A stretch of 64,000 nucleotides of DNA, from assembly GCA_027468165.1 (NCBI GenBank), contig GCA_027468165.1_3951.1; one strand, 5' to 3'. Positions 12,735 through 27,157 of this stretch are shown piece after piece. A model generated the notes under the pieces. It ran no database searches. It worked only from the letters and a program-made list of their open reading frames with translations, and was not told the DNA's origin. The position numbers and the translations under genes are program-made. How positions within the stretch are numbered: the stretch's first letter is position 1; each line of letters begins with the position of its first letter. Source of the stretch: a phage.

Positions 12735-12735
<1 letters not shown>

Positions 12736-14204
12736 TGGCAGGATTAACTACAACAGGATTACAAACTCTAAGATATCAGGAAATTTTTGATAATATCAAA
12801 TCAAGACTTCTTAGAGATATTTCACCAAACCTTGACGTTTCTGAAGATAGTCAATTAGGCCTCTTCCTAGCTTCAATTGCAAGGTCTTTAGCAGATACTC
12901 ACGAGATTCTATCAGAAGTCTATGATGGTGGAACAATTGACAAGGCCGAAGGCTTTAACCTTGATGATATTACCGCTTTAAACGCTGTATATAGGTATGT
13001 TGCACAGGCAACAAGAGGTCAGGTGGAGTTTACTGGAACAACTGGTGCTACCATTCCTTCAACAACAAGATTAAGAAGTACTGCCGGAAACATCTTTTAT
13101 CCAGTTAACAACATTACCCTTACCCCATCATATTGTGTTGAAGCTGTCCTTGAAGTTAACTCTTTACGAACTGATGCAGATTATGTTATTATTATTGATA
13201 ACGTCATTTTCTCATATAAACCAACCTCATCAGATACAATCACCACACTTCTAACAAAATTAGCAGAAGCTATTAATGGTGGTATTGTAGCAAAGGCAGA
13301 AGTCATTAATGATGGAGCAGCATTAAAAATCTATAAAGATGAGGGTGATATCATTGCAAGAACAAACCCTATGGTTGTCACTGCAACAACGTTTCTGACC
13401 TTTACAAAAATTACAACTATTTCAGATGTAGTAGCTGAAGAGGTTGGTGCTACCCCTGCTTTAGCTGGTACACTTATTGAGATTGAGACAACTGTTGATG
13501 GTCTTGACAGTATTTATAACAGATATGACTTAACAACTGGTAGAAACGAAGAAACTGACACAGAACTTAGACAGAGATATTTAGAGTCCTTAGCAGTTAC
13601 TGGTGTAGGAACTTTGGATGCAATTGTAGCTGCTGTTAAAAGAGTTCAAGGTGTCTCAGATGCTTCAGGTGTTGAAAATGATACTGAAGAAACAAACTCA
13701 GAAGGTCTCCCACCAAAATCTTTTAAGATTGTTGTAGTTGGCGGTCAAAATGATAATGTTGCTCAAGCAATCTGGGATACAAAACCTGCTGGTATTAGAG
13801 CTTATGGCTCAATTTTTGGTACAGCCCATGATTTAGGTGGTTTAGCACACAATATCTATTTTAGCAGACCAACACCAAAATACGCATTTGTTAAGGTCTC
13901 TTACTCTCTATATGATGAAGAAAGCTTGACAATCCCTGAAGAGGATATCAGAGACAGTATTGTACAAGGTATTAATGCCTACGGAAGAACTCTTAAGGTT
14001 GGTAATGATGTTATCCCTAACAGAATCTATGGACATATCTATGACGTAATTAAAGGTATTGAGATTAATGAAGTTAAAGTAGCATTATCAAATAACCAAT
14101 CAGTTCCACCTAGTGACGGACAATATACTACAGCAAGAATTACTGTTGACGGTGACCAATATACTGTTTGGGAAAGCAGCCAGTATACCATCACTAAGGA
14201 GTAA
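12735..14204 (+). CDS. Baseplate protein (gpJ-like, putative)
   Basis: 489 aa ORF after the W-like gene. Confidence 0.35.
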
Positions 14205-14206: not shown

Positions 14207-15061
14207 ATGTTTGAAAAGATTGATAGTGTTTATTACAAAACACTTGATGAACGAACTGTAACACAGTTTAAAGATAAGTTTATCTACACAAGCATCTTGA
14301 AAGCAGTCACTGATGAGTTACAAACGCTAGAGGATGTTTGCTGGCAGATGCACACAGAGAGAAATATCAGGACGTCAGTAGGCCAACAACTTGATAATAT
14401 TGGCTCACTGATTAAAGTTCCTAGACCTTTAGGTGCTGATGATGAAACATATAGAGCTATGCTTTATATCCAAATCTTCCTAAGACGCTCTGACACTACT
14501 CCTACATTCTTGCAAAAAGCAATTATGACACTGTATGGTGCAACTTTCTCTCAGATTTTTGAGCATATTACTCCTAAGACTGGTGGTATCGTTATCCGTA
14601 TTAACACCAGAAAAAACGTTCTTGATGCTGCATATACGCTATCAAAGATTTCTGCAACAACCACTGGTTCTGCTGTTATCTTAAGAGATGTTACTTTAAA
14701 GGGGACTGCTTGGACACCTGTAGAGGTTGCTGATTCAGCACTTGCCATTGTTGATGATAAAGAGAACTGGTTTGTAACTGATGCTAACAGAGGTCTGGTA
14801 ACAAATAACACTGGTGGCTCTCTGGAGTCTAACCTAGTAGGGAGTCTTGCAGATGCTGGTGTTATTGATGGTTACTTTAAGGTTGACAGAACAGCAAACT
14901 CACAGAGTGATGATTACATGACTGTAGATAGGTCTAATAAAAGTGGATATTTCATCATTGGTAAAGAAGCTGTTGCAGGTGGTGCATACGGAATCATGGC
15001 TGAGGTTGCACAAATTGTCAAAGGCAGAAAAGATAAATCACAACAAGAAGGAAATTCTTAA
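14207..15061 (+). CDS. Baseplate/tail fiber attachment protein (gpI-like, putative)
   Basis: 284 aa ORF directly upstream of the fiber genes. Confidence 0.3.
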
Positions 15062-15363
15062 TGGCAGTTTTAAATTGGTCTACAAATGAAGTGGATACCG
15101 ATGGTAATCAGTTAAAAGTTTTACCACCACCGGAAATTCAAGAGACAGGTCTTTTAAAGGGTGAGCCTATGGGTAGGCAGTGGTTCAACTATATTATCAA
15201 CTACCTGCTGAATAAAGTAAACGGCACTGTTGGTGAAGTTCGCTCATATGCAACTGAGCAACCAGATTTAGTGGCTAATGGCTGGAATCTGATTAAGTCT
15301 GAGACAGGGACTGCATCAACAAGTACAAGAAACCTTTACACATATGAATATGTAGGAGCTTAA
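15061..15363 (+). CDS. Hypothetical tail protein
   Basis: 100 aa coupled ORF. Confidence 0.3.
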
Positions 15364-15365
15364 TA

Positions 15366-16541
15366 ATGGCAGTAGGTGAAATTCAAATTAGTGCCTTGCC
15401 ACAAGCGGCCTTACCAATTGATTTGAGTGATATCTTCCATCTTAAGCAAGGTGTTGAGGATAAAAGATGTACGCTTGAACAATTGTTAGCACCTCACGCA
15501 TCTTTGAGGAATAACCCTCATGGTGTAACTAAATCACAAGTTGGTCTTGATAATGTTATTAACTCTCTACAATTAGTTGCAGCTAATAACTTGTCAGACA
15601 TTGTGAATGTTGCTGAGGCAAGAGCGAATCTGCAAATTATGTCTTCAGATGAAGTGAACAGTTTAATTAAGAGACATATCGACGACAAAAGCAACCCACA
15701 CAATACAACTAAAGCACAGGTTGGGTTAAGTAATGTTCAGAACTGGACAACATCAAACCTGTACAATGAAGATGCTGATAAGTATGCTACCGCGAGAGCA
15801 GTGAATAATTTATACAAAGCTATCCAAGCATCATATCCAGTAGGGACTATTCATCTATCTGTTAACTCTACTAATCCATCTACTTACTTGCTTTGTGGGG
15901 GTACTTGGGAGTTAGTATCTAAAGGTAAGGCACTAGTTGGTTATGATACAGATTCTAGACCTGTTGGTTCAACGTTTGGTTCTCAGACTGTAGCATTAAC
16001 AAATAATAATTTACCGGCGCACACCCACTCTATCTATTTAACAGGTGGTGGCCATACACACTCTGCAAGTGTATCTATCTCCAGTTTTGATTATGGTTCA
16101 AGAAGTACATCAACTTTCGATTATGGTACGAAGGCAACCGATGGTGCTGGTGCTCACACTCACACTTTTAGTGGCACGACAAGTAATGCTGGTAACCACA
16201 ACCATAGAGTACCACTGAGAGGTAATGATAGGAGTGGGTGGAATGCTATTACCGCGTCTGCTGATGCTGGGGTTGGTAACGCTTCGTATACTGATTTAGC
16301 AGGTGCTCACACCCATAGCTTCTCAGGCACAACTGCATCATCTGGTGCTCATAGCCATACTGTTGCAATTGGTGCTCATAGCCACACTGTTAGTATCGGT
16401 TCACACAGTCATACTGGCACTGTTACTGTTTCTAGCTCAGAGCATACGCACTCAGGCACATCTGGCTCTGTTGGTGGTGGTCAGGCTTTCAGTGTTGAGC
16501 AGCCATCTTTTGTAGTATATGTATGGCAGAGAACAGCTTAG
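15366..16541 (+). CDS. Tail fiber protein with C-terminal HxH repeat tip domain
   Basis: Repeated AHTHS/AHSHT/GHTHS motifs; C-terminus ...AFSVEQPSFVVYVWQRTA resembles the C-terminus of the next gene. Confidence 0.6.
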   Translation: MAVGEIQISALPQAALPIDLSDIFHLKQGVEDKRCTLEQLLAPHASLRNNPHGVTKSQVGLDNVINSLQLVAANNLSDIVNVAEARANLQIMSSDEVNSLIKRHIDDKSNPHNTTKAQVGLSNVQNWTTSNLYNEDADKYATARAVNNLYKAIQASYPVGTIHLSVNSTNPSTYLLCGGTWELVSKGKALVGYDTDSRPVGSTFGSQTVALTNNNLPAHTHSIYLTGGGHTHSASVSISSFDYGSRSTSTFDYGTKATDGAGAHTHTFSGTTSNAGNHNHRVPLRGNDRSGWNAITASADAGVGNASYTDLAGAHTHSFSGTTASSGAHSHTVAIGAHSHTVSIGSHSHTGTVTVSSSEHTHSGTSGSVGGGQAFSVEQPSFVVYVWQRTA

Positions 16542-16550
16542 TTTCTTTAC

Positions 16551-16571
16551 AGGGGCTTTATAGCCCCTTTT
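16551..16571 (+). terminator. Hairpin/terminator between the two fiber genes
   Basis: AGGGGC-TTTATA-GCCCCT hairpin followed by TTTT. Confidence 0.4.
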
Positions 16572-16587
16572 AAGAGGAAAATTTATA

Positions 16588-19119
16588 ATGGCAGATTACA
16601 AATTGAGTCAATTAAACTCAATCGACACAATCCGTTCAGATGACCTTCTTCATGTCAGAGTTAAAAAGAGACCTGAAATGCTGGGTGATGAAGACCGTCG
16701 AATGACCTATCAAGACTTTTTAGCATCTTTTAAGCTTGAAAGATTTGTTCAGATTGCTGGTAGTAATATGACAGGTGACTTAGGGATTGTTAAGTTACTT
16801 TATGGTGGTAAGGCAGTCTTTGACCCAACAGGCTCTTCTGAGATTACTATTGGGGATGTTTTAAAGACTTTTAAAATCAACGCAAGCGGCCTTAAACTAA
16901 CTATTGCAGATGCTTCAAGGTCGGCAACTGTTTATCATACTCTGAATAAGCCAAGTCCTAATGAACTTGGGATGAGAACTAATGAAGAGAATGATGCAAG
17001 ATATGCAAGGCTTGCTATTACAAACACATTCTCTGGAACTCAGAACATTCAAGGTGATGCTAACTTACTTCGCCTTAGAAACCAAAATGCAAACAAAGCA
17101 CAATATATTGAAGGTGTAAACCTAGATGGTTCGGCTAGATGGTGGGTTGGTATTGGTAGTAATGGCTCTGACGAAGTAAAGCTGTACAATAACAAATACA
17201 ACACAGCAGTGATTGTTGCAAACAATATCTCTGTGAGTAGGTCTTTAGCAATCACTGGTCAAGTTCAACCATCAGATTTCTCTAACTTAGATGCTAGATA
17301 CTTTACTCAGACAGTTGCTAATCAGAGATTTGCACAGTTAGCTGCTAATAACAATTTCACTGGTACTAACACTTTTAGCAGAAATCTAACTATCATTAGT
17401 GACAGTGCTGCTTTAAGGTTGAAAAATGCAACATCTAGTTCCCTATTTATTCAGGGAGTTAACTCTCAGAATGCCAACAGATGGTATGTAGGGAACGGTG
17501 ATAACACCGCCTCTGTGTTACTACACAACTATGTATACAATTCAAATATTAGGCTCGATAATGGATATATCTCAGTCAACCAGAATTTCAGAATCACTGG
17601 TCAAGTTCAACCTTCTGATTGGACTAACATCGACTCTAGATACATTCCGGTAGGAACTTTGAGTAATCTTGCTAAACTAAGTGATGCAAACACTTTCAGG
17701 TCTTCACAAGTAATTCTCAAAGATGAACTATCGTTACAGCTAAGAAACACTGTTCAGGATAAGCCACTATACCTTGCTGGTTATAACGCTGATAATGTGA
17801 GAAGGTGGTTCATCGGGAATGGGGAGCCAGCAGACCCAACTAAACTCATTATTTACAATGATAGGACTGGTACTGCTATTTTCATGCAAGATGACTTCTT
17901 GCTGAACAAAACAGTCAGAATTGCTGGTCAAGTACAACCTTCTGATTGGACTAACATTGATGGTCGATACTATAACAAGTCATCAGCAGATAATAGGTAT
18001 CTAAGAGTAAGAAGCACTGGATTTAACACCAGCGGTGTGGATAAATGGGCTAAGATTGCAACTGTCACCATGCCACAAACAACATCAACAGCAGTAATCG
18101 AGTTGTTTGGTGGGGCTGGGTTCAACTTTGGTGCATATGACCAAGCCTGTAAAACAGAAATTGTTCTTAGAACAGGTAATAACAACCCAAAAGGATTAAA
18201 TGTTGTTGCATGGAAAAACTCACCAAATGGTGTTGTGACGGAAATTGGGTATGTTAACACATCTGGCGATAATTATGACATCTATTGCAAAGCTACTCGT
18301 TATCAAAATGCTACGACAGCTAGGGTTCAGTCATCAGATAATGCAACAGTACAACTGTTTGCAACCCCAGAGACATACGATAATGCTCCAGATGACTATG
18401 TTGCTGGGACAATTGCTTATTATTATACTAGTCTCTTGAAACCAACCCCTTCAGATATTGGTGCATACACTAAAGGAGAAACTGACCAGAAGATTGCACA
18501 GGCAATTAGTGACTCTACAGACCTGAATAAAATCTACCCAGTTGGTATTGTAACGTGGTTTAACAGTAATGTTGACCCTAACACAGCGTTGCCTGGGTTA
18601 ACTTGGACGTATCTGAACAATGGTGTTGGTAGAACTATCAGAATCGCAGCAGCAAATGGTTCAGATGTTGCTACAACTGGTGGTTCAGATTCTGTAACGT
18701 TATCTGTTGGTAACTTACCTTCACACACGCATAGTTTCTCTGCTACCACGTCGTCGTTTGATTACGGCACTAAAACCACGAATAACACCGGGGCGCATAC
18801 GCACAGTGTGAGCGGTACAGCCGCAAGTGCCGGAAACCATACTCATAGTGTCAAAGGCGCATCAGCAGAAAGACGGTACACATCAAGTGGGTCAACAAAT
18901 GAGGTAGTGGCTGCGGTCAATATGAATACAAGTGCTGCAGGAGCGCACACTCATAGTGTCAGCGGCACAGCTGCATCTGCAGGTGCTCACGCACATACTG
19001 TCGGTATTGGTGCTCACACCCATACAGTTAGTGGTAACACTGGTGGTACAGGTTCTGGTTCAGCATTTAGTGTTACTAACCAGTTCTACAAGTTGATGGC
19101 TTGGGTAAGAACTGCTTAA
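16588..19119 (+). CDS. Large tail fiber protein with internal ~110 aa repeats and C-terminal HxH repeat tip
   Basis: 843 aa; three to four repeats containing ITGQVQPSD(F/W)(S/T)N(L/I)D.RY; C-terminal AHTHSVSGTAASAG repeats; C-terminus ...AFSVTNQFYKLMAWVRTA. Confidence 0.65.
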   Translation: MADYKLSQLNSIDTIRSDDLLHVRVKKRPEMLGDEDRRMTYQDFLASFKLERFVQIAGSNMTGDLGIVKLLYGGKAVFDPTGSSEITIGDVLKTFKINASGLKLTIADASRSATVYHTLNKPSPNELGMRTNEENDARYARLAITNTFSGTQNIQGDANLLRLRNQNANKAQYIEGVNLDGSARWWVGIGSNGSDEVKLYNNKYNTAVIVANNISVSRSLAITGQVQPSDFSNLDARYFTQTVANQRFAQLAANNNFTGTNTFSRNLTIISDSAALRLKNATSSSLFIQGVNSQNANRWYVGNGDNTASVLLHNYVYNSNIRLDNGYISVNQNFRITGQVQPSDWTNIDSRYIPVGTLSNLAKLSDANTFRSSQVILKDELSLQLRNTVQDKPLYLAGYNADNVRRWFIGNGEPADPTKLIIYNDRTGTAIFMQDDFLLNKTVRIAGQVQPSDWTNIDGRYYNKSSADNRYLRVRSTGFNTSGVDKWAKIATVTMPQTTSTAVIELFGGAGFNFGAYDQACKTEIVLRTGNNNPKGLNVVAWKNSPNGVVTEIGYVNTSGDNYDIYCKATRYQNATTARVQSSDNATVQLFATPETYDNAPDDYVAGTIAYYYTSLLKPTPSDIGAYTKGETDQKIAQAISDSTDLNKIYPVGIVTWFNSNVDPNTALPGLTWTYLNNGVGRTIRIAAANGSDVATTGGSDSVTLSVGNLPSHTHSFSATTSSFDYGTKTTNNTGAHTHSVSGTAASAGNHTHSVKGASAERRYTSSGSTNEVVAAVNMNTSAAGAHTHSVSGTAASAGAHAHTVGIGAHTHTVSGNTGGTGSGSAFSVTNQFYKLMAWVRTA

Positions 19120-19197
19120 TCCCTTATTGACTGATTGTTAAGATGGTGTTAATATTCTTTAGGGTATTCTCACCATCTTGGCTGATGAGGTGATTAA

Positions 19198-19395
19198 ATG
19201 CCTACAATCCTAGCAATTCTTCTAAAAAATCTAGGTAGCTTCTTCTGGAAACTTATTTTATCCCTTCTAAGTGAATACATGATTGAGAAAGTGTTCTTTA
19301 GGCTTGCAAGATACCTTGCGAGTAAAACAGACACACCTATTGATGATGAGTTCGTAGATAACTTAGAAAAAGCTTTTAAGGGGGAGAATAAATGA
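19198..19395 (+). CDS. Small membrane protein (hypothetical; holin-like topology)
   Basis: 65 aa with one hydrophobic helix and a charged C-terminus. Confidence 0.25.
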   Translation: MPTILAILLKNLGSFFWKLILSLLSEYMIEKVFFRLARYLASKTDTPIDDEFVDNLEKAFKGENK

Positions 19396-19763
19396 AGTGG
19401 CTAGAGGAAGCTTTTAAAAATAATATTGGTGCAATTGTAGTTGGTATTTTTAGTGTTATCGGAATGTATACCACGATGCAAGTTTCAAGTGGTAAACAAG
19501 AAGTGTCTGTCTCAACAAAGTTACAACAGTTGGATAATTACACAAGTAGTAACTATTCAGCTATTCGTGATTTACAGTCTGACATGAGACTTATTCAGTT
19601 AGGGATGGAGAACCAGAAAGTTCAGTTAGAGAATGTTAAGGGTGAGAACGCAAAACTTACCAAAACTCTTGATAAATTCTCTGACAGTGTGAATAATCTG
19701 GCCCAATCAGTATCAGCCCTCCAAGCTATTACTGAGAAGAACACAAAGAATACTGAAAAGTAA
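19392..19763 (+). CDS. Membrane-anchored coiled-coil protein (hypothetical)
   Basis: N-terminal hydrophobic helix IGAIVVGIFSVIGMY followed by a coiled-coil region. Confidence 0.3.
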   Translation: MKWLEEAFKNNIGAIVVGIFSVIGMYTTMQVSSGKQEVSVSTKLQQLDNYTSSNYSAIRDLQSDMRLIQLGMENQKVQLENVKGENAKLTKTLDKFSDSVNNLAQSVSALQAITEKNTKNTEK

Positions 19764-19770
19764 AGTTTAA

Positions 19771-19796
19771 GGCTCCTTTTTACGGGAGCCTTTTTT
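19771..19796. terminator. Bidirectional terminator at the convergence of the plus-strand structural block and the minus-strand block
   Basis: GGCTCC-TTTTTAC-GGGAGCC hairpin with a T-run on the plus strand; lies between convergent genes ending at 19763 and 19800. Confidence 0.55.
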
Positions 19797-19799
19797 GTT

Positions 19800-20699
19800 T
19801 TATTTACCTACTGACAAAGGTGCTTCAATCTTCCCTGCATGTTGGTAATTGTTAATACCACCAATAAAGTCACTTGCAGTGAGATGTTTCAGGTCACTTA
19901 AAGTATTAAGTGGAAGACCAATCTCAAAAGTTGGTGCATGGAACTCTTCATTGTTCATCAGTTCATAAACCTGCTTCATATGATTCTGATAAATCTGAGT
20001 ATCTCCAAAGACACCTATCAAATATCGTGGAGTGTATCCAGTCATCTTACAAAGAACTTCCAGAATAAAACCGTAAGATGCAATATTAAACGGAAGTCCT
20101 AAAAAGGTATCTACTGAACGCTGATACCATTGTAAGTCAACTTCACCCTCGTTAGTAATATAAATCTGAAACAGAACATGACAAGGTGCTAGAGCCATTG
20201 AGTTTGCTGCAATATCTGCTGCATTCCAAGCATTAACAAGCATGTAACGGTCTGTGATATCACCCTTCATCTTTGTTACTAAGGTCTCTAACTGGTCTAC
20301 AACACAACCGTTATGACCTTCAAAGTTTCTCCACTGAACTCCATAGATTCTTCCACCTGCATCTTCTAACCAATCTTGTTCAGAAGAATAATTAGAGCTT
20401 AACCAGCGTTTAAAATCATCTGACCAGATTGTCCAACGTTCTCCGTCATTTTCACCCCAAGTGCGATAACGGAGTTCGCCAAGCTTATTCTCACCATTCA
20501 GGAACCATAAAGCTTCCCCAATAACTTGCCGTGTAAACACCTGTTTAGATGTTAAGAGCGGGAAACCAGTTCGCATATCAAAACGAAACTGAGGTGGAGC
20601 AAATGCAGAGATAACATCTCCAGTTCGTGTAGTACGCAGTTCACCGACGGATAAAACATGGTTCAGGATATTTTTATAACTTGAATCTGCTTGTGACAT
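19800..20699 (-). CDS. thyA: Thymidylate synthase
   Basis: Motifs RTGFPLLTSK, YGVQWR, ALAPCH and LGLPFNIASY match ThyA. Confidence 0.95.
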   Translation of the reverse strand: MSQADSSYKNILNHVLSVGELRTTRTGDVISAFAPPQFRFDMRTGFPLLTSKQVFTRQVIGEALWFLNGENKLGELRYRTWGENDGERWTIWSDDFKRWLSSNYSSEQDWLEDAGGRIYGVQWRNFEGHNGCVVDQLETLVTKMKGDITDRYMLVNAWNAADIAANSMALAPCHVLFQIYITNEGEVDLQWYQRSVDTFLGLPFNIASYGFILEVLCKMTGYTPRYLIGVFGDTQIYQNHMKQVYELMNNEEFHAPTFEIGLPLNTLSDLKHLTASDFIGGINNYQHAGKIEAPLSVGK

Positions 20700-20700
20700 A

Positions 20701-21246
20701 TCAAAAGTGTCCTTTTACTTGTGGAACATAAATTTCAAAAGTTGCTTTACCATCCTCTGATGGTTTTGACTGTACCTTTGTAAATACACGACCATCATAC
20801 AACTTCTCGAAGAAGTTTTCAAAAGGTAAATGTACAGTGACCTCTTCAGTAACTTTATGGAAAACTGTATGGAACACTACATCAGCATACGGTAAAGCAT
20901 TGACAAGGACACCTGCACCACCAATTACAAAGACATCTTCATCAATAGAGCTATCAAGATACTTCAAAAATGCTCCAAATGACTCTTTACTGGCTTTTGC
21001 ATACATTACGTCATCTTTGCCAAAGTCTATACCTAAGTATGGTACAGAGTTTGTTAATATGAGGTTTGCACGTTCTGGTAAAGGTTTACTACCCAGAGTC
21101 TTGAAAGTCTCATTACCCATCACTACTAAGTTGTTTTTAGTGAGTCTCTTAAACTCTTGCATATCCTGTTTATGTCGAGGCCACGGCATACCAGTTGGAG
21201 TACCAAACTCACCATTTTCGCCACTTGCAAAGATTAATTTAATCAT
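20701..21246 (-). CDS. folA: Dihydrofolate reductase
   Basis: GMPW, VVMGNETF, PLPERANLILTNS and VIGGAG match DHFR motifs; adjacent to thyA. Confidence 0.9.
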   Translation of the reverse strand: MIKLIFASGENGEFGTPTGMPWPRHKQDMQEFKRLTKNNLVVMGNETFKTLGSKPLPERANLILTNSVPYLGIDFGKDDVMYAKASKESFGAFLKYLDSSIDEDVFVIGGAGVLVNALPYADVVFHTVFHKVTEEVTVHLPFENFFEKLYDGRVFTKVQSKPSEDGKATFEIYVPQVKGHF

Positions 21247-21503
21247 TTTGTAAATCCTTTCTTAATGAACCAGTTGATAACATTCTTCACAGCTTTATTA
21301 CTATGGTAGATTAAGTGTGGTGTAGGCTGGTATAAACCATAAGCCCAGAAAGCAATGATTTCATTACATCCTGTACACCTTGTACTCTCTTCGGCAATAT
21401 GACCGTGGACTATTTCACTTACCTCACCTTGTAAGTCTGTACACCCACAATGTGGGCATCGGATAGGTGTTCCATCAGACTCATAGCAGTGTTCAATTTT
21501 CAT
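21243..21503 (-). CDS. Zinc-ribbon protein (hypothetical)
   Basis: CPHCGC ... CTGCNE cysteine pairs. Confidence 0.4.
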   Translation of the reverse strand: MKIEHCYESDGTPIRCPHCGCTDLQGEVSEIVHGHIAEESTRCTGCNEIIAFWAYGLYQPTPHLIYHSNKAVKNVINWFIKKGFTK

Positions 21504-22019
21504 TTATTTAACCTCAAAAACTGGCTCAAGAACCAATATAAAGTCTACACAGTCATCTTCTTCATCCAGAATACCATCAAAGTTCTTAGGAACGAAGTCG
21601 AAGAGGCTCATAACAAAACAGTCAGAAGTAACCCTAATAGTGCCTCCCATATTCTCTACAGTCAACACTGTACGGCTTTCTTTTACCTCTCGAAGAAGAT
21701 TGCTCACAAAGTCATCTAAGAAGTACTTCATCAGTGACTTAAAACCTTTAGGGTAATCTGTACCAGAGTATGTTTCAATCTGAGGTACAAGCTTAACATT
21801 TATACTAGTCTTTGTTAAGAACGTATTAGAGAACATGCTATCAGGTAACTTGCAAACAGTCTTTCCAGTACCTTCATGTTCAATCTCAACAAAACCAGCT
21901 TCATCGCCACATGTAACTATTTTAAAAGATGCTTCATTCTCATACTGTGAAGCCATAAACTTTTTAAGCATCTCTTTAAGGAAATCTGCATGGGCATCTT
22001 GTAAGAAGATATCAATCAT
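21504..22019 (-). CDS. Hypothetical protein
   Basis: 171 aa ORF in the minus-strand operon. Confidence 0.4.
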   Translation of the reverse strand: MIDIFLQDAHADFLKEMLKKFMASQYENEASFKIVTCGDEAGFVEIEHEGTGKTVCKLPDSMFSNTFLTKTSINVKLVPQIETYSGTDYPKGFKSLMKYFLDDFVSNLLREVKESRTVLTVENMGGTIRVTSDCFVMSLFDFVPKNFDGILDEEDDCVDFILVLEPVFEVK

Positions 22020-22032
22020 AGTTAATCACCTA

Positions 22033-22392
22033 TTATGGGAACAGACACTTAATGTCATCGTTTTTGAAAACGAAGCTTGTGTAATTGTGACCATCAACGT
22101 CCAGCCAAACAGCCTGAACATCTACACCATCAAGGTTGTGGTAAAGCTCTTTGATGAAGTGGTCTTTCACAATCTGACTGCTAGTTGTTTCCAGCTTAAT
22201 GTTTGAGATTGCTGAACCTACAGCCATATAACCCATGACACGTTTCTTCTCAGTATGATTAATCTTACCATCTTTGTAAGTCATAATGAGATTGGAAAGA
22301 ATCTTTGCACCGTAATGCTTCTCAAGGTGAGTAGGTACACCATAAAAACCTAGTGCGAAGTTTTCAGAGTGGATAATGTTTTCACGTTTCAT
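22033..22392 (-). CDS. Hypothetical protein
   Basis: 119 aa ORF in the minus-strand operon. Confidence 0.4.
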   Translation of the reverse strand: MKRENIIHSENFALGFYGVPTHLEKHYGAKILSNLIMTYKDGKINHTEKKRVMGYMAVGSAISNIKLETTSSQIVKDHFIKELYHNLDGVDVQAVWLDVDGHNYTSFVFKNDDIKCLFP

Positions 22393-22393
22393 A

Positions 22394-22723
22394 TTAATCT
22401 GCCAACCTTAAATTGAAGTTAACACCAAATTTTTCACATACTCCCAACATAAACTCAAGGGAGACATTGCCAGTGAGATTGATTATGTTGGATACACGAG
22501 CCTGAGAGATACCACAAATTTTAGCAACTTGCTCTTGAGAAAGACCTCTGGATTTAATCTCTCTCTTAAAACGATGTGCAACGAAATCTCTCATTTCGTC
22601 TACATCCATTGGACAAATATAACTCCCCATTTCAGCCTCTCTGTCAGCCTCCCAATCATCTTGTGGAGCATAAGGGTCAAAAACCTCATTCATCTTTCTT
22701 CTTCCGTTTGCGTGAAGTGTCAA
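22394..22723 (-). CDS. Helix-turn-helix (XRE-type) DNA-binding protein
   Basis: LSQEQVAKICGISQARVSNIINLTGNVSLEFMLGVCEKFGV matches the HTH_3 pattern. Confidence 0.6.
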   Translation of the reverse strand: MTLHANGRRKMNEVFDPYAPQDDWEADREAEMGSYICPMDVDEMRDFVAHRFKREIKSRGLSQEQVAKICGISQARVSNIINLTGNVSLEFMLGVCEKFGVNFNLRLAD

Positions 22724-22898
22724 TCAATGAATCTATGTTTGTAGCTCTAACCTTTTCACGTTCATCGTTAAGATAATCGTCAAGAGCCTTTTCAATCTGT
22801 GAATCATCTTGACAGATAACTGTAAAGACTGTAAAGCCGTCTGTATCATCAATTATCTTACCATAACCGCTTCTGGGATGTAACTTTTTAAGAGCCAT
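22686..22898 (-). CDS. Hypothetical protein
   Basis: 70 aa ORF with basic C-terminus; overlaps the start of the HTH gene. Confidence 0.3.
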   Translation of the reverse strand: MALKKLHPRSGYGKIIDDTDGFTVFTVICQDDSQIEKALDDYLNDEREKVRATNIDSLIDTSRKRKKKDE

Positions 22899-22899
22899 A

Positions 22900-23283
22900 T
22901 CAAATACCTGTGCAGCTTCTGTTTTCTAAGAAATACTCAACACCATACATAGCTTTTTGCATCAAATCTTCTTTAAACTGGATACGATGATTAAGCATAG
23001 CCTGTACATCAATATCATCATGGTGCTTCTCTTTAATATTTGCAGATTGCAGGAAATACTCTGCAAGAACACGATACTGATAGTCAGTTACCTTATCAGT
23101 CATCTCTGTTAAAGACTCTTCAGAGATTGGTTTAAGTAACTCACCATTAGCCAGAGCAACACCTTTAACAATCTGGCAAGTGTCTTCTGGAACACCTGAT
23201 AAGTCCACATTTGGGAGTTCTGTTGCATTGACTGGTAAATTCATTGCCATAACCATTGCAGCAGCTAATAAAATCTTTTTCAT
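22900..23283 (-). CDS. Secreted/periplasmic protein with signal peptide (hypothetical)
   Basis: N-terminal MKKILLAAAMVMAMNLPVNA signal-peptide-like sequence. Confidence 0.45.
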   Translation of the reverse strand: MKKILLAAAMVMAMNLPVNATELPNVDLSGVPEDTCQIVKGVALANGELLKPISEESLTEMTDKVTDYQYRVLAEYFLQSANIKEKHHDDIDVQAMLNHRIQFKEDLMQKAMYGVEYFLENRSCTGI

Positions 23284-23548
23284 AATGACCTCAAAGTTAT
23301 ATTAAATTTTGTATTACATCGAGTATAAAAATAAGCTATAACACCTGACTTGTCAACAGATTTTATAGCTTATTTGGCAGATTTTTATAAGGCTACTACC
23401 ATCCTTCCATACCAAACCCTACCTTACCAAACCATACAATACTGAACCTCACTTAAAACCCTCTTAGAAGACTCTTAAGTGATGCTGGTGAGTACCCGTT
23501 GGTTTATGCTGCTCAGTATACTCACCAAATTTTCTATGTCAACAACTT

Positions 23549-24652
23549 TTATTCATAATCTCGTATAACGAGACCAACAGGGAACTGTAAAGAACCCTTA
23601 CGAGTCATCTTCTGGAACTGAACCGTTAAAGGCTTCCCGATAAACTCTTCAGGATGTTCAGCAAGATACTGTTTTTTCTCATGAGTAGTCTTCCATGAGA
23701 CATCTACAAAGACGTTAGGGAGAGTCTCTACAACAAACTTGCCATGACCACGCTTATCAGTCTTTACACCAGTTACTTTAAACTCTTCAGTGTGCATCTT
23801 CTTGTGCTTAATCAAGAAGTATGAACGGTGACAACACTCATAGAAGGAGTATTCAGAAATTGAACGGTACATTGCACCTTCAAACTTAGCTTCAACCCAT
23901 TTATCATGAGCTTCATCAAACTCTTCCCAAGAATTTACACGACGAGATTTAACAGGAACAACTTTACAGCCATCTCTAAAGTCATTCAATGGTGAAGTCT
24001 CAATAATATCTCTACGCTCAGGCCACGTCTTAGTGCTGTCACAGATATCATACCAGTAAAACTTGAGCAGGTGTCTGTCAGGATTGTCTTCATTTTTAAT
24101 CATAGAGACAATATCTTCTAAGTCCCACCCATGAGCATAAATCTCTCCATCAAATTCATCAACATCTTTGTGGAGCCTTAGCATTGCCATAATGTCAGGT
24201 ATTAGTTCAGTAGGGATTTTGTAAACAGTATTCTCACGAGAGTATGCTGTAAATACACTGCCAATACTCAAGTGCCTTGAAATCCTACAACGTACACCAT
24301 CCAGTTTTGGTTGAGCATCAGCAGGGAATTTCAAATACTTTGCATGACTAACCTTTGCAGCATCATGAGCAAGCTGAACACCTACCTTTTCAGTATTCTG
24401 TGCAGACTCTTTTGTGTAAGCATAACCTTTGCGGTCAACTTGCTTTTTATACTTAGCAGAAACTTCAAAGAGAGCTTGCTGTTCAGCGTTACGCTCATTC
24501 TTTTTACCGATGTTTTTAGGTTCTGCTGTATACTCTTCAAACATCATCTTGCCATTTTCTTTACCGTAGGTTGTAATAACTTTGTCACCTACAGCAACGC
24601 ATGACCAGACATTGAAAGAGCCATCTTTATTTTGTTTGTACAGAATTGTCAT
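23549..24652 (-). CDS. ATP-dependent DNA ligase
   Basis: Adenylation motif I KLDG (PKLDGVRCR); size and context fit a T7-type ligase; start chosen at ATG after GAGG RBS. Confidence 0.8.
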   Translation of the reverse strand: MTILYKQNKDGSFNVWSCVAVGDKVITTYGKENGKMMFEEYTAEPKNIGKKNERNAEQQALFEVSAKYKKQVDRKGYAYTKESAQNTEKVGVQLAHDAAKVSHAKYLKFPADAQPKLDGVRCRISRHLSIGSVFTAYSRENTVYKIPTELIPDIMAMLRLHKDVDEFDGEIYAHGWDLEDIVSMIKNEDNPDRHLLKFYWYDICDSTKTWPERRDIIETSPLNDFRDGCKVVPVKSRRVNSWEEFDEAHDKWVEAKFEGAMYRSISEYSFYECCHRSYFLIKHKKMHTEEFKVTGVKTDKRGHGKFVVETLPNVFVDVSWKTTHEKKQYLAEHPEEFIGKPLTVQFQKMTRKGSLQFPVGLVIRDYE

Positions 24653-24845
24653 TTTTAACCTCTGAGTGATACCAAGTGTAACAAGCATTACATGCGTAAA
24701 GCTCTAAGTCATTTTTATCTGGTTTATGGAAACAGTTTGACCCACAACGACACCGGAATAGCTTACCATCAACACGAAGAATGAATGTTTCAAGCTCACC
24801 ATCTTCTGTAAGAACTGCGTTCTTAAATTTATCTTCTACAGTCAT
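24627..24845 (-). CDS. Zinc-ribbon protein (hypothetical)
   Basis: CRCGSNC ... CNAC cysteine pairs. Confidence 0.35.
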   Translation of the reverse strand: MTVEDKFKNAVLTEDGELETFILRVDGKLFRCRCGSNCFHKPDKNDLELYACNACYTWYHSEVKNDNSVQTK

Positions 24846-24896
24846 TTTCTCTTACCACCAATTTCTACGTCAATAACTTGAACATCACCAGCAACA

Positions 24897-25133
24897 TCAC
24901 TCAATAACCGTAGTATGTGATTGACCGTTTTTACCATAGCTGTAAGATGTTGTTGTTTGAGAGTTTGGACATCTGACAACAACAATGTCTCTGCTTATGG
25001 TATCACCATGTAACTTATAGACTTTGCAATCTTGCATCTCTGGTGGGAGGCTGTAAGAAGCATTTTTATCTTCATAAGAAGGGTTGCAGCCAGATAGAAA
25101 AATAACACCAAGTGCAATTACTGCTTTCCACAT
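24897..25133 (-). CDS. Putative lipoprotein
   Basis: ATG after GGGGAGG RBS; signal peptide ending in lipobox-like FLSGC. Confidence 0.45.
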   Translation of the reverse strand: MWKAVIALGVIFLSGCNPSYEDKNASYSLPPEMQDCKVYKLHGDTISRDIVVVRCPNSQTTTSYSYGKNGQSHTTVIE

Positions 25134-25319
25134 AATACCTCCCCTATTACTGTTCACGATGTTCTACTTCTCTGTACGTTCGTCGATAGATTATAATAAG
25201 CTGTGCTAACTCGTTGCTTTTCACATCTGAACGTAGCAGTTGCCAATCAAAACCTTTACCGACTCTTCCATACAAACTAAATAATTTTACTTTGTGTTTC
25301 ATTTTGGTGTCCCTAATAC

Positions 25320-25547
25320 TCAGAGGCCAATACTAATACGTTCACCCTTAAGGACTCCTGTACGGTCTCTTGCAATCTTACCGTCAACAATAAGAATGTG
25401 CGCAGACTTTAAAGATTCACTATTAAAACCTTTTACGAACTTACTAGGCATCACCACAATAAGCATCTCTTGAATCAACTCTGGAGTATAGCAGTTGTTG
25501 TGAAGTTGCTGAATAACGTCTGCAAGTGTCATTTTTGATGTCTCCAA
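25320..25547 (-). CDS. Hypothetical protein
   Basis: 75 aa ORF. Confidence 0.3.
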   Translation of the reverse strand: METSKMTLADVIQQLHNNCYTPELIQEMLIVVMPSKFVKGFNSESLKSAHILIVDGKIARDRTGVLKGERISIGL

Positions 25548-25738
25548 TACTCAATGTCAATAAGTTCTTGTGCAATGCTTTTCAGATTACCTTTCAAGAA
25601 AACCTTCTCAGAACCTGAAAGAGATGAATTATCAATTAGCCTGTTCATCCTCTCAAACAACTTCTGCTTACGATTCTTGATAGTCTCCTTTGAAGCACCT
25701 TTCATCATTGCTGCATGGGTTCTTCCACGGTGGCTCAT
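25529..25738 (-). CDS. Hypothetical basic protein
   Basis: 69 aa ORF. Confidence 0.3.
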   Translation of the reverse strand: MSHRGRTHAAMMKGASKETIKNRKQKLFERMNRLIDNSSLSGSEKVFLKGNLKSIAQELIDIEYWRHQK

Positions 25739-25799
25739 AAGCCCTCCTATATAAGATATTGTATAAGGTACTCTTCCATGAGCACCTTGTCAATACTAA

Positions 25800-26356
25800 T
25801 CAGTGTACTTCAAGCCAATTTTTACCAACTTTACCAGTACCAGTTACAAGCGTTTCCTCCTTAAGCCCTAAATTTCTTGACGCTTGACCATACATCCAGT
25901 CAATTACTGCTTTAACATCCTGCGTCATGTCTTCTGGGCACTCCCAACTATTCTCATCGTGATATGCTAAAAGCAATCTAGCGCCAATAGCTGGTTTTCG
26001 ACCATTCAACTTTGTAAGACCCTCTTCACAAGTTCTTCTACAAGCAAGGTTGATGGCTTCATTCTGAACCTGACTTTCAGAACCCATAAGCAAATAATTC
26101 AATAACTTATGTGGAGATTTACACCACAACCAAGCTCCAGCAACCTTTACAAACCCTCCTTTAGAGATTGCGGCAGTCTTACCAAATACCTCTTCAAGAG
26201 CCTTCTTAGTAGCTTTGAAGTCTGCTTCTAAATTATCCAGCAGCTTCTTAATTTTAGGGAGACGTACAAAGTATGTTTGCTTAGTTAAAGCACCCTCCTC
26301 AGTTGTAGATGCTTTAATCGTCTTAGCAAATTTCTCATCGCCAGCCCCGAACAATA
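25800..26356 (-). CDS. DNA polymerase (family A), exon 2 (C-terminal part)
   Basis: LFGAGDEK (end of motif B), AYHDEN (motif C) and C-terminal ...KNWLEVH match Pol I/T7-type polymerases; frame is open upstream of the reported start. Confidence 0.75.
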
Positions 26357-27157
26357 CATCTGGTCAATACACTCGCAAGGTGTACCAGTTCTCTTATGAA
26401 CTTCTCCGCATTTCTACGGAGTGTCGGACTATATCACGTAGCAGTGATGCTACCGTTGCACTTGGGAATGGTCATTAGCTTACCACCCTACTCTACTCAG
26501 TTCATACGTTAAGTATGCCTTTCGATAGTCTCTGAACGTTTCTCTGTTAGGAATCTCTATAGTTATGTTATTTACTTAGGTAGTCAATTGCTCTTTGCAT
26601 ATTATCAACGCTATCTGCAAGCAACCCCAAAGCTCTGTTGCAATTGTGGCATAACATACCTCTTACCTTTCCGGTTTTATGGTCATGGTCAACAACAAGT
26701 TTAGCCTTGTGTCGTGAACCATTCATGATAAAACCTTCACCGCCACAAATTTGACATTTGTAATCACAGTCACGGAGTAGAGCTTCAACCTCTTCTCTTT
26801 CCAATCCATATGTTCTTAGGTAGTAATTCTTAACTCTACCTTTCTCACCGCAATGTGACGAACAATAAACTTGCCTTGCTGTTCTCGGCATGAACACCTT
26901 CTCACAACTAGGACATTTCTTAGTAAGAACCCTGTGTTCTGCCCTTCTGTCAAACTTTAATACACAACTTCTGCACCGTTTCTGATTGTATTGGTATGGT
27001 TTAAACTCCGTACCACACTCAGTGCATAATCTCTCTTCGTAACCTGCCATTGTCTCTCTCCTTGTTTTAGGAGTCCTAACAGAGACTTCGCTGCTGATTA
27101 CCATATCTTTACAGACTTAGGCTTCCAGCAATTCACAACGTTTTACATGCGCCACTG
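26357..27157 (-). mobile_element. Group I intron (about 801 nt) interrupting the DNA polymerase gene and carrying an HNH endonuclease ORF
   Basis: 5' exon ends in U paired to intron GCGCAU (P1); intron ends in G; R-like GTTCAGAGACTA and S-like GATATAGTCC elements (minus strand); exon lengths sum to 2700 nt in frame. Confidence 0.65.
26568..27050 (-). CDS. HNH homing endonuclease (intron-encoded)
   Basis: Cys-rich zinc-binding region plus VVDHDHKTGKVRGMLCHNCNRALG HNH motif; start at ATG after AAGGAGA RBS. Confidence 0.8.
   Translation of the reverse strand: MAGYEERLCTECGTEFKPYQYNQKRCRSCVLKFDRRAEHRVLTKKCPSCEKVFMPRTARQVYCSSHCGEKGRVKNYYLRTYGLEREEVEALLRDCDYKCQICGGEGFIMNGSRHKAKLVVDHDHKTGKVRGMLCHNCNRALGLLADSVDNMQRAIDYLSK

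What the first reader, a model, noticed from the sequence alone, without database searches (positions are those of the whole stretch)
15366..19119. Two tail fiber genes share a histidine-rich HxH repeat tip
The 391 aa and 843 aa fiber proteins both carry C-terminal arrays of (A/G)HTHS/(A/G)HSHT-type motifs spaced about 8-12 residues apart, and end in similar sequences (...AFSVEQPSFVVYVWQRTA versus ...AFSVTNQFYKLMAWVRTA). HxH repeats in T4 fiber tips coordinate metal ions inside a trimeric beta-structure, so these are probably metal-binding receptor-recognition tips. Two fibers with a shared tip module but different shafts suggests module exchange or two receptor specificities.
Basis: partly seen in the sequence, partly recalled or inferred. 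Interest (0 to 1): 0.5.

Follow-up and report, generated by a model that had tools for sequence, protein, structure and literature searches.

The report
Felix O1-type phage fibres, T4-like tips
The two genes are the short and long tail fibres of a Felix O1-like coliphage, and both end in the already published T4 gp37-type "collar, histidine-lined needle, head" receptor-binding tip; the one new detail is that the long fibre's head segment was recently swapped in from a T4-like or lambda-like phage.

Summary
ORFs 15366-16541 (391 aa) and 16588-19119 (843 aa) carry 9 and 6 HxH motifs (0 of 20,000 shuffles reach this). Their C-terminal ~200 aa are homologous: 40% identity, E=3e-29, extending into the non-His collar and the last strand.

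Both tips match the crystal structure of the T4 gp37 tip (PDB 2XGF; E=2.7e-26 and 5.9e-17). The HxH spacing is the same as in T4 (14/36-37/14/9/9), where each HxH layer holds one iron ion on the trimer axis.

So the metal-lined needle reading is well supported by homology, although no metal or trimer was tested here. Two corrections apply:
- The HxH array is the structural needle. The specificity element is the ~29-aa head between the ascending and descending strands, which is unrelated between the two fibres and hypervariable in the genus.
- The shared C-terminal ending returns to the collar.

This architecture is already published for Felixounavirus (Bas63 cryo-EM 2025; noted in 2010 and 2015).

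The two genes show no recent exchange with each other. However, LTF nt 18739-19016 is 96.4% identical to gp37 of the T-even phage G2285, inside a Felixounavirus backbone. No gp38, Tfa or gp57A chaperone homologue lies in the window.

Verdict: ordinary and already known, with a tidy new example of cassette swapping.

The parts
15366..16541 (+). Short tail fibre (STF) gene, 391 aa. It is the orthologue of Felix O1 gp76, wV8 gp82 and Bas63 gp26.
   Evidence: ORF. phrog_2097 'tail fiber protein', E=1e-135. 95-97% aa identity to wV8 and fBSPA4. Same gene order as the relatives. Bas63 description.
15834..16019 (+). STF collar domain (aa 157-218), ending at NLPAHTHS.
   Evidence: Pfam PF21939 Gp10_C, E=1.4e-18, 68.6 bits against a cutoff of 27. 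Aligns to the T4 gp37 collar and to the T4 gp10 C-terminal domain.
16020..16205 (+). STF needle, ascending strand (aa 219-280). HxH at 219, 230, 264 and 278. Contains a duplicated FDYG(S/T)(R/K) segment.
   Evidence: H230 and one FDYG unit are extra relative to T4 gp37.
16206..16292 (+). STF head (tip) insert, aa 281-309 (RVPLRGNDRSGWNAITASADAGVGNASYT). Predicted receptor-contact region.
   Evidence: Aligns to T4 gp37 932-959, the tip subdomain that carries the receptor-binding residues. Lowest conservation among Ounavirinae STFs, 16-46% in distant members.
16293..16457 (+). STF needle, descending strand (aa 310-364). HxH at 315, 329, 338, 347 and 360. Includes a 27-nt (9-aa) tandem duplication at 16332-16389.
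   Evidence: Spacing 14/9/9 is the same as T4. H360 is extra relative to T4.
16458..16538 (+). STF C-terminal strand (aa 365-391, ...GQAFSVEQPSFVVYVWQRTA), returning to the collar.
   Evidence: Aligned with the T4 gp37 C-terminus ...NIAFNYIVRLA. Nearly invariant in the genus.
16551..16571 (+). GC-rich hairpin plus short T run between the STF and LTF genes (AGGGGCTTTATAGCCCCTTTT).
   Evidence: Sequence. The same position is annotated as a rho-independent terminator in wV8. The simple terminator scan did not call it.
16588..19119 (+). Long tail fibre (LTF) gene, 843 aa. It is the orthologue of Felix O1 gp77, wV8 gp83 and Bas63 gp27.
   Evidence: ORF. phrog_4277 'tail fiber protein', 1300 bits. 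70-80% aa identity to Felixounavirus LTFs. The exact protein is in NCBI as a hypothetical protein on an 87.6-kb E. coli assembly contig.
17005..17997 (+). LTF shaft (approximate bounds): three ~115-aa repeats, each ending in I(T/A)GQVQPSD(F/W)(S/T)N(L/I)DxRY.
   Evidence: Pfam PF20744 gp37_trimer, three stretches, E=1.5e-66. Weak match to the T7 gp17 pyramid region, 4A0T, E=1e-4. Strongly mosaic among relatives.
18013..18474 (+). LTF central domain (aa ~476-629), not characterised here.
   Evidence: phrog_3299, phrog_21552 and phrog_11029 hits, E=1e-25 to 1e-31. Replaced as a block in some relatives, at 0-23% identity.
18535..18723 (+). LTF collar domain (aa 650-712), ending at NLPSHTHS.
   Evidence: Aligns to the STF collar (E=2e-5) and to T4 gp37. 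The Pfam Gp10_C match is 21.8 bits, below the cutoff of 27. 93-100% identical in Felixounavirus relatives.
18724..18846 (+). LTF needle, ascending strand (aa 713-753). HxH at 713, 737 and 751.
18847..18933 (+). LTF head (tip) insert, aa 754-782 (SVKGASAERRYTSSGSTNEVVAAVNMNTS). Predicted receptor-contact region.
   Evidence: Aligns to the T4 gp37 tip subdomain. Only 6-20% identical to all 11 compared Ounavirinae LTFs. No similarity to the STF head.
18934..19029 (+). LTF needle, descending strand (aa 783-814). HxH at 787, 801 and 810. T4's seventh HxH is absent.
19030..19116 (+). LTF C-terminal strand (aa 815-843, ...GSAFSVTNQFYKLMAWVRTA).
   Evidence: Nearly invariant in the genus (identical in 8 of 11 compared LTFs).
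18739..19016 (+). Horizontally exchanged cassette inside the LTF (aa ~718-810): SSFDYGTK, HxH 2 to 5 and the head, with the 3' junction inside HxH 6 (GIGAHTHTV).
   Evidence: 96.4% nt identity over 278 nt to gp37 of Mosigvirus vB_EcoM_G2285, and 91.4% to the stf gene of lambdoid PhiR29_2. In 30-nt bins, identity to G2285 is 86-100% inside and 33-66% in the bins just outside. Felixounavirus relatives show the opposite pattern. Unique among the top 120 LTF homologues.

Best explanation
These are the short (STF, 391 aa) and long (LTF, 843 aa) tail fibres of a Felix O1-like myophage (Ounavirinae, Felixounavirus).

Each fibre is expected to be a homotrimer ending in a T4 gp37-type receptor-binding module. 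The chain forms a small collar domain and then runs out along a thin needle. It makes a ~29-residue head at the far end and runs back along the needle. Its last ~25 residues return to the collar, so the needle is a six-stranded beta structure.

By homology, every HxH motif points its two histidines at the three-fold axis. The three chains together give six ligands for one metal ion, which is Fe2+ in T4. That predicts 9 metal layers in the STF needle and 6 in the LTF needle. The metals rivet the needle together; they do not touch the receptor.

Specificity lies in the head. The two heads are unrelated in sequence here, so the two fibres most likely recognise different surface structures, probably LPS-core sugars or an outer-membrane protein.

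The conserved SSFDYGTK and GIGAHxHTV 'His-box' sequences that flank the distal needle and head act as recombination joints. In this phage the LTF cassette (18739-19016) was recently acquired from the T-even or lambdoid gp37/Stf pool.

Shown here: the homology, the motif register, the variability pattern and the mosaic junctions. Inferred: trimer formation, metal binding, receptor identity and the direction of transfer.
For: Family and gene order:
- Megablast and tblastn place the region in Felixounavirus, with the order wedge 2 (489 aa), wedge 1 (284 aa), 100-aa platform protein, STF, LTF. This matches Bas63 gp23 to gp27.

Homology to a solved tip:
- phmmer against PDB sequences finds 2XGF (T4 gp37 tip) at E=2.7e-26 for the STF (residues 145-362) and E=5.9e-17 for the LTF (701-822).
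- A three-way alignment has 48 invariant columns, including YP.G of the collar, FDYGTK and all HxH histidines present in all three sequences.
- HxH spacing is 32/14/37/14/9/9 in T4, 11+34/14/37/14/9/9/13 in the STF and 24/14/36/14/9 in the LTF.

Literature:
- In T4 there are seven coordinated iron atoms along the needle, H929 is a ligand, and the receptor-binding residues cluster in tip subdomain 932-959 (PMC6957217).
- The Bas63 cryo-EM paper describes STF gp26 and LTF gp27 as both having a collar, an HxH needle and a head like T4 gp37 (PMC12609058).

Variability across 12 Ounavirinae fibre pairs:
- The collar and C-terminal strand are 93-100% conserved across the Felixounavirus LTFs. Identity collapses in the head bins: STF 271-330, and LTF 751-780 at 6-20%.

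Cassette:
- define it. The closest LTF backbone (P0002, 83-100% per 30-aa bin outside the cassette region) instead carries a T4-like head. Swapping therefore appears recurrent.
Against: - No metal, trimer or receptor was observed here.
- The only structure prediction possible was a monomer. It was unusable (mean pLDDT 51), so no fold search was run.
- Even in Bas63 the fibre density was too weak to place side chains. Metal sites in a Felixounavirus fibre have therefore never been seen directly.
- T4 gp37 needs the chaperones gp38 and gp57A. No homologue of either, or of lambdoid Tfa, was found in the 64-kb window (best E=0.15).
- The LTF lacks T4's seventh HxH, and the STF has two extra.
- The Pfam collar match of the LTF is below the curated cutoff (21.8 against 27 bits).
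Confidence: 0.88

Rival explanations
1. The resemblance between the two C-termini is only low-complexity His/Ser/Thr/Gly composition, with no common ancestry or shared fold.
For: The needle is compositionally biased, and the BLAST low-complexity filter trims matches to it (for example the partial coverage).
Against: - Composition-adjusted BLASTP gives E=3e-29.
- The non-His collar alone gives E=2e-5, and the C-terminal strand alone gives E=0.008.
- The Smith-Waterman score is 24 sd above composition-preserving shuffles.
- Both proteins independently hit the same solved structure, in the same register.
Confidence: 0.01
2. The HxH arrays are themselves the receptor-recognition surface, for example through metal-mediated binding to LPS phosphates or sugars.
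For: They are the most conspicuous feature of the distal fibre. LPS is the known receptor class for Felix O1-like phages.
Against: - In the homologous T4 structure the histidines coordinate iron atoms along the needle and are critical for folding. Receptor-contact residues map to the tip subdomain.
- Here the HxH and flanking residues are largely conserved between fibres and phages with different hosts. Only the head varies. That is the reverse of what a specificity surface would show.
Confidence: 0.04
3. The shared tip results from recent recombination or gene conversion between the two fibre genes within this genome.
For: In the relatives UAB_Phi87 and Mushroom, the STF and LTF genes share a ~200-nt head cassette at 91% and 85% nt identity. 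Intragenomic exchange therefore does occur in the genus.
Against: In this window the best STF-LTF nucleotide match is 96 nt at 76%, confined to the descending His boxes. The heads show no similarity. Overall tip identity is 40% at the protein level, which fits an old duplication or independent acquisitions.
Confidence: 0.03
4. The fold is as proposed, but the two fibres do not give two alternative host specificities. They act in sequence on one host, like T4 LTF and gp12: the LTF binds reversibly first, and the STF then binds the LPS core irreversibly and triggers the baseplate.
For: - Both fibres are attached to every baseplate in Bas63, at different wedge positions.
- The STF is far more conserved than the LTF: 95-97% identity to wV8 and fBSPA4, against 80% at best for the LTF. 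This fits a conserved secondary receptor.
- Felix O1-like phages depend on the LPS core.
Against: [quoted passage not shown] In some relatives both fibres carry the same head, which fits redundancy better than a two-step scheme.
Confidence: 0.4

Closest known systems
Bas63 (Escherichia phage JohannRWettstein) STF gp26 and LTF gp27; cryo-EM, Sci Adv 2025, PMC12609058
   Same: - Same genus-level gene order and the same two-fibre system.
[quoted passage not shown]
- The LTF has 6 HxH in both phages.
   Different: - The STF here has 9 HxH, against 7 reported for Bas63.
- This LTF head cassette is absent from every other Felixounavirus LTF compared.
- I did not align the Bas63 proteins directly.
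T4 gp37 receptor-binding tip (PDB 2XGF; Bartual et al. 2010, cited and from my own knowledge)
   Same: - Direct sequence homology over the collar, needle and C-terminal strand.
- The same HxH register.
- The head is inserted at the same point.
   Different: - The STF needle is two HxH layers longer and the LTF needle one layer shorter.
- The heads are unrelated to T4's.
- No adjacent gp38 gene and no gp57A homologue in the window.
- The tip is fused to much shorter fibres made of one protein, rather than the four-protein T4 long fibre.
gp37 of Mosigvirus vB_EcoM_G2285 (MK327933) and the side tail fibre Stf of lambdoid phages PhiR29_1/2, 2H10 and SPF_0923
   Same: The distal needle plus head cassette is 96.4% nt (92% aa) identical to G2285 and 91.4% nt (81% aa) identical to PhiR29_2. 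It probably has the same receptor specificity.
   Different: Everything outside the 278-nt cassette is unrelated at the nucleotide level. Those phages carry a gp38/Tfa assembly gene directly downstream of the fibre gene. This window has none.
Felix O1 gp76/gp77, wV8 gp82/gp83 and VpaE1 gp74/gp75
   Same: These are orthologues. Their C-terminal homology to T4 gp37 was already noted in 2010 and 2015. The wV8 STF is 95.4% identical to this STF.
   Different: LTF heads and shaft segments are mosaic. The wV8 and JN01 LTFs have only 4 HxH and a much larger head insert.
T4 gp12 and gp10 C-terminal domains (Pfam PF21939 Gp10_C)
   Same: The collar domain of the STF matches Gp10_C above the curated cutoff and matches the gp10 crystal structure 2FKK.
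   Different: gp10 and gp12 lack the long HxH needle and the re-entrant head. Only the collar is shared.

Membership tests
T4 gp37-type receptor-binding tip (collar, needle, head; PDB 2XGF) | Significant sequence homology to the solved tip across collar and needle | tested here: met
   phmmer against PDB sequences: STF E=2.7e-26 (query 145-362 to chain 17-227) and LTF E=5.9e-17. The three-way alignment has 48 invariant columns.
T4 gp37-type receptor-binding tip (collar, needle, head; PDB 2XGF) | HxH motifs on both the ascending and descending strands, in the T4 register | tested here: met
   Spacings are 14/37/14/9/9 in T4, 14/37/14/9/9 in the STF and 14/36/14/9 in the LTF. All aligned T4 histidines are conserved. 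The STF has 2 extra motifs and the LTF has 1 fewer.
T4 gp37-type receptor-binding tip (collar, needle, head; PDB 2XGF) | Variable head inserted between the third and fourth T4-equivalent HxH, with the chain C-terminus returning to the collar | tested here: met
   29-aa inserts lie at STF 281-309 and LTF 754-782, aligned to T4 932-959. They are the most variable part among relatives. The conserved C-terminal strand aligns to the T4 C-terminus.
T4 gp37-type receptor-binding tip (collar, needle, head; PDB 2XGF) | Homotrimer with each HxH layer coordinating one metal ion octahedrally on the three-fold axis | not testable with these tools
Only monomer AlphaFold2 is available. The LTF tip model had mean pLDDT 51 and pTM 0.22 and was not used.
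T4 gp37-type receptor-binding tip (collar, needle, head; PDB 2XGF) | Assembly depends on a dedicated chaperone (gp38/Tfa, usually encoded directly downstream) and on gp57A. This is a property of the T4 pathway, not of the fold. | tested here: not met
   tblastn and phmmer of T4 gp38, G2285 gp38, two PhiR29 Tfa proteins and T4 gp57A against the 64-kb window give a best E of 0.15. The two ORFs downstream of the LTF are small proteins with hydrophobic N-termini and unknown function. About 23 kb of the genome lies outside the window and was not searched.
Felixounavirus STF/LTF pair (Bas63 gp26/gp27, Felix O1 gp76/gp77) | Gene order: wedge 2 (489 aa), wedge 1 (~285 aa), ~100-aa platform protein, STF, LTF, followed by small ORFs and an oppositely oriented thymidylate synthase gene | tested here: met
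   Window ORFs. The layout is identical in fBSPA4, wV8, ASO1A, UAB_Phi87, JN01 and others. The sizes match those in the Bas63 paper.
Felixounavirus STF/LTF pair (Bas63 gp26/gp27, Felix O1 gp76/gp77) | Full-length sequence similarity to genus members | tested here: met
   STF identity to Felixounavirus members is 72-97% over 100% of its length. LTF identity is 70-80% over 100% of its length. phrog_2097 and phrog_4277 match end to end.
Pfam PF03335 Phage_fiber (14-residue tail-fibre repeat = His box) | Score above the curated cutoff of 20 bits | tested here: inconclusive
   The LTF scores 33.2 bits and passes. The STF scores 15.5 bits and falls below the cutoff, even though it has more HxH units.

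The most novel reading that the evidence does not exclude
A receptor-binding cassette comes from phages that always pair it with a dedicated gp38/Tfa assembly chaperone. Here it sits in a Felixounavirus long fibre with no detectable chaperone gene. The nearest sister backbone carries a different, T4-like cassette. If the phage is viable, Felixounavirus collars and C-terminal strands would be a naturally chaperone-independent chassis into which T-even or lambdoid heads can be dropped at the FDYGTK and His-box joints. That would make gp37-type host-range engineering much simpler. It would also imply that gp38/Tfa dependence belongs to the T4/lambda collar context rather than to the needle and head.
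Probability: 0.3. Interest if true: 0.45.

Novelty: already known. Interest (0 to 1): 0.2.

Why it matters
The finding as stated matters little, because it is textbook-level for this genus. Both Felix O1-type fibres were linked to T4 gp37 in 2010 and 2015, and the collar, HxH-needle and head architecture of both was described from cryo-EM in 2025.

The practical value is in annotation and engineering:
- The exact protein is labelled 'hypothetical protein [Escherichia coli]' in NCBI.
- The head segments (16206-16292 and 18847-18933) are the places to look for host-range determinants.
- The sharply bounded 278-nt cassette shared with a T-even phage is a clean natural example of where such tips can be cut and pasted.

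Tried and rejected
1. AlphaFold2 monomer of the LTF tip (aa 640-843) with a 47-sequence alignment. Mean pLDDT was 51 and pTM 0.22. I judged it unusable and ran no fold search on it. A trimer cannot be submitted with these tools.
2. Search for chaperones. T4 gp38, G2285 gp38, two lambdoid Tfa proteins and T4 gp57A were compared with the window by tblastn and phmmer and gave nothing. A tblastn of gp38 against all phage records returned T-even, lambdoid, P2-like and other phages. No 85-90 kb Felixounavirus-sized record appeared among the rows shown, but the full list was not inspected.
3. The two small ORFs downstream of the LTF were considered as candidate chaperones. They match only families of unknown function and give weak coiled-coil or Rz-like hits. 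Some records annotate the second as a holin. I rejected them as chaperone candidates for lack of evidence.
4. Literature on 'His box' recombination. Three full-text searches found nothing usable, and PMC2996694 and PMC5899708 are not held. The Tetart, Sandmeier and Haggard-Ljungquist papers are therefore cited from memory only.
5. The receptor of the G2285/PhiR29-type head. No paper was found.
6. The promoter and terminator scan of 15000-19900 gave counts no higher than in shuffles.

Full report
**What is there.** The window encodes, on the + strand, a 489-aa Baseplate_J protein (12735-14204), a 284-aa baseplate protein (14207-15061) and a 100-aa protein (15061-15363). These are followed by the two ORFs of the finding: 15366-16541 (391 aa) and 16588-19119 (843 aa). 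Next come two small ORFs, and then thymidylate synthase and dihydrofolate reductase on the opposite strand. Megablast of the two genes finds 242 phage records, almost all Felix O1-like (Felixounavirus) phages of Escherichia and Salmonella. The best is Escherichia phage JN01 at 91% identity over 88% of the query. Gene order is identical in every relative fetched. The exact 843-aa protein is in NCBI as 'hypothetical protein [Escherichia coli]' on an 87,625-bp contig. The window is therefore most of a Felixounavirus genome assembled with an E. coli isolate.

**Checking the observation.** The ORF sizes, the endings and the HxH motifs are all real. The 391-aa protein has nine HxH (219, 230, 264, 278, 315, 329, 338, 347, 360). 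The 843-aa protein has six (713, 737, 751, 787, 801, 810). Shuffling the last 190 residues gives means of 1.6 and 0.7 motifs, and none of 20,000 shuffles reaches the observed number. The two proteins align at 40% identity over 193 residues, E=3e-29 with composition adjustment.
- The collar region, which has no HxH, aligns on its own at E=2e-5.
- The last strand aligns on its own at E=0.008.
- The local alignment score is 24 sd above composition-preserving shuffles.

The '8-12 residue' spacing is approximate. Within a strand the spacing is 9-14, with longer gaps of 24-37 residues.

**What it is.** Both C-termini are sequence homologues of the only solved structure of this kind, the T4 gp37 receptor-binding tip (PDB 2XGF). 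The E-values are 2.7e-26 for the short protein and 5.9e-17 for the long one. I fetched T4 gene 37 and aligned its residues 785-1026 with the two tips. The alignment has 48 invariant columns. These include YP.G in the collar, the FDYGTK motif, every HxH histidine common to the three sequences, and the terminal R.A.

T4's seven tip HxH lie at 883, 915, 929 | 966, 980, 989, 998, giving spacings of 32/14/37/14/9/9. The corresponding spacings are 14/37/14/9/9 in the short fibre and 14/36/14/9 in the long one. According to Islam et al. 2019 (PMC6957217):
- the T4 needle carries seven coordinated iron atoms, and H929 is one ligand;
- the chain runs 882-931 out and 960-1009 back;
- residues 932-959 form the tip subdomain;
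- the residues needed for LPS and OmpC binding cluster in that subdomain.

By alignment, the heads here are residues 281-309 of the short fibre (16206-16292) and 754-782 of the long fibre (18847-18933). Relative to T4, the short fibre has one extra HxH on the way out (H230, with an extra FDYG unit) and one extra on the way back (H360). The long fibre lacks T4's seventh. This predicts 9 and 6 metal layers. A 27-nt, 2.1-copy tandem repeat at 16332-16389 encodes the 9-residue HxH unit, which suggests how needle length changes.

**This is already in the literature.**
- Whichard et al. 2010 noted that Felix O1 gp76 and gp77 both resemble T4 gp37 at the C-terminus (PMC3185647).
- The VpaE1 paper in 2015 said the same for gp74 and gp75 (PMC4690856).
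- The 2025 cryo-EM study of the Felixounavirus Bas63 describes an STF (gp26) and an LTF (gp27). [quoted passage not shown] The study counts seven and six di-histidine motifs and compares both fibres to 2XGF (PMC12609058).
- That paper also reports high variability in the receptor-binding tips across the genus.
- The Sf14 paper notes T4 gp37-like tips and the absence of Mu-type fibre chaperones (PMC11821841).

**Where specificity lies.** I extracted STF and LTF from 13 and 11 Ounavirinae genomes and aligned them. Across the Felixounavirus LTFs the collar and C-terminal strand are 93-100% identical to the window (63-83% in Mooglevirus), and the STF N-terminal region and C-terminal strand are also well conserved. 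Identity collapses in the head bins. For the STF this is residues 271-330 (16-46% in distant members). For the LTF it is residues 751-780, which are only 6-20% identical in every relative, including the closest. The number of HxH also varies: STF 6-9 and LTF 4-6, with 6 in 102 of the top 120 database homologues and 4 in 17. The two heads in this window share no detectable similarity. Different receptors are therefore the natural inference, but nothing here measures binding.

**Module exchange.** In this window the best match is 96 nt at 76% identity in the descending His boxes, so there has been no recent exchange between the two genes. In UAB_Phi87 and Mushroom, however, STF and LTF share about 200 nt at 91% and 85% identity, spanning FDYGTK, the head and the first descending His box (visible).

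More striking is the result from a tblastn with the window's LTF head region. It found no Felixounavirus at all. It found instead gp37 of the T-even Mosigvirus vB_EcoM_G2285 (92% aa) and side tail fibre genes of lambdoid phages (80%). At the nucleotide level, window 18745-19022 is 96.4% identical over 278 nt to G2285 gene 37 and 91.4% identical to PhiR29_2 stf.

Binned identities and mismatch maps place the junctions at about 18739, just before SSFDYGTK, and about 19016, inside GIGAHTHTV. In 30-nt bins, identity to G2285 is 86-100% inside and 33-66% in the bins just outside. Identity to Felixounavirus LTFs shows the reverse pattern: 30-80% inside and 90-100% just outside. Among the 120 best LTF homologues in the 5.8-billion-protein collection, only the identical protein has this cassette; the next best is 58%. 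The closest backbone, P0002 (83-100% per 30-aa bin outside the cassette region), carries instead a cassette very like T4's own.

The most economical reading is repeated cassette replacement from the T-even/lambdoid gp37/Stf pool, with the conserved FDYGTK and His-box sequences acting as recombination joints. That conserved 'His boxes' mediate adhesin swapping among T-even phages, and that fibre segments move between unrelated phages, is from my own recollection (Tetart et al. 1998; Sandmeier 1994; Haggard-Ljungquist et al. 1992). I could not retrieve those papers here.

**An open point.** T4 gp37 needs gp38 and gp57A to trimerise (PMC3004832). G2285 and PhiR29_2 each have a gp38/Tfa gene directly after the fibre gene. 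The window has no homologue of gp38, Tfa or gp57A (best E=0.15). The ORFs after the LTF are a 65-aa and a 123-aa protein with hydrophobic N-termini and unknown function. About 23 kb of the genome is outside the window, so absence from the whole phage is not shown.

**What failed.** The only structure prediction I could run, a monomer of the LTF tip with 47 homologues, gave mean pLDDT 51. I did not use it.

**Verdict.** The feature is already known for this genus, so interest is low. The cross-family cassette at 18739-19016, and the apparent lack of a cognate chaperone, are the only points that go beyond published descriptions.

Noticed in passing
window 18739-19016: A 278-nt segment of the long fibre gene is 96.4% identical to gene 37 of a T-even phage (Mosigvirus vB_EcoM_G2285) and 91.4% identical to a lambdoid stf gene. 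Both flanks are Felixounavirus-like. The junctions fall in the SSFDYGTK and GIGAHTHTV coding sequences.
   Followed up: yes
L005 (UAB_Phi87) 4248-4447 vs 6707-6906; L013 (Mushroom) 1034-1228 vs 3664-3858: In these Salmonella Felixounaviruses, the STF and LTF genes of the same genome share the head cassette at 91% and 85% nt identity. Both fibres probably bind the same receptor there, unlike in this window.
   Followed up: partly
P0002 (closest LTF homologue, 90% identity) residues ~729-812: This protein has the same LTF backbone as the window but carries a head cassette very close to that of T4 gp37 itself (…[33 protein letters not shown]…). Sister backbones therefore hold different T-even-type heads.
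   Followed up: partly
window 1-64000 (whole window): No homologue of the fibre chaperones T4 gp38, lambdoid Tfa or T4 gp57A was found, although both fibres end in a gp37-type tip and the LTF cassette comes from phages that have a gp38/Tfa gene directly downstream.
   Followed up: partly
window 16551-16571: A GC-rich hairpin followed by TTTT lies in the 46-nt gap between the STF and LTF genes. The same site is annotated as a rho-independent terminator in wV8. It could attenuate read-through into the LTF gene.
   Followed up: no
window 16332-16389: A 27-nt tandem repeat (2.1 copies, 80% match) encodes the 9-residue GAHSHTV(A/S)I unit. It is a likely trace of unit duplication that lengthens the needle.
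   Followed up: no
window 17005-17997 (LTF aa ~140-470): Three ~115-aa internal repeats (Pfam gp37_trimer x3) each end in GQVQPSD(F/W)xN(L/I)DxRY. There is a weak match to the pyramid region of the T7 gp17 fibre (4A0T). Individual repeats are swapped between relatives: some 30-aa bins are 20-40% identical while neighbouring bins are above 90%.
   Followed up: no
window 18013-18474 (LTF aa 476-629): A central domain of unknown function matches several unannotated or tail-fibre PHROG families. It comes in at least two unrelated versions across the genus (0-23% against 63-93% identity). It may be a second, lateral binding or decoration domain.
   Followed up: no
window 15513-15566 and 15693-15746 (STF aa 50-67 and 110-127): The motif NPH(G/N)(V/T)TK(S/A)QVGL(D/S)NV occurs twice, 60 residues apart, in the STF shaft. 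No Pfam family matched it.
   Followed up: no
window 19198-19395 and 19392-19763: Two small overlapping ORFs lie just after the LTF gene. One is 65 aa with a hydrophobic N-terminus and an acidic tail. The other is 123 aa with an N-terminal hydrophobic segment and a coiled coil, and has a weak Rz-like spanin hit. Relatives annotate them inconsistently as hypothetical or holin. A strong terminator hairpin at 19769-19792 follows them.
   Followed up: partly
window ~19800-30000: Coding strand and GC skew flip here (skew +0.07 to -0.16/-0.23). This marks the boundary between the structural module and a leftward nucleotide-metabolism module (thymidylate synthase 19800-20699, dihydrofolate reductase 20701-21246).
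   Followed up: no
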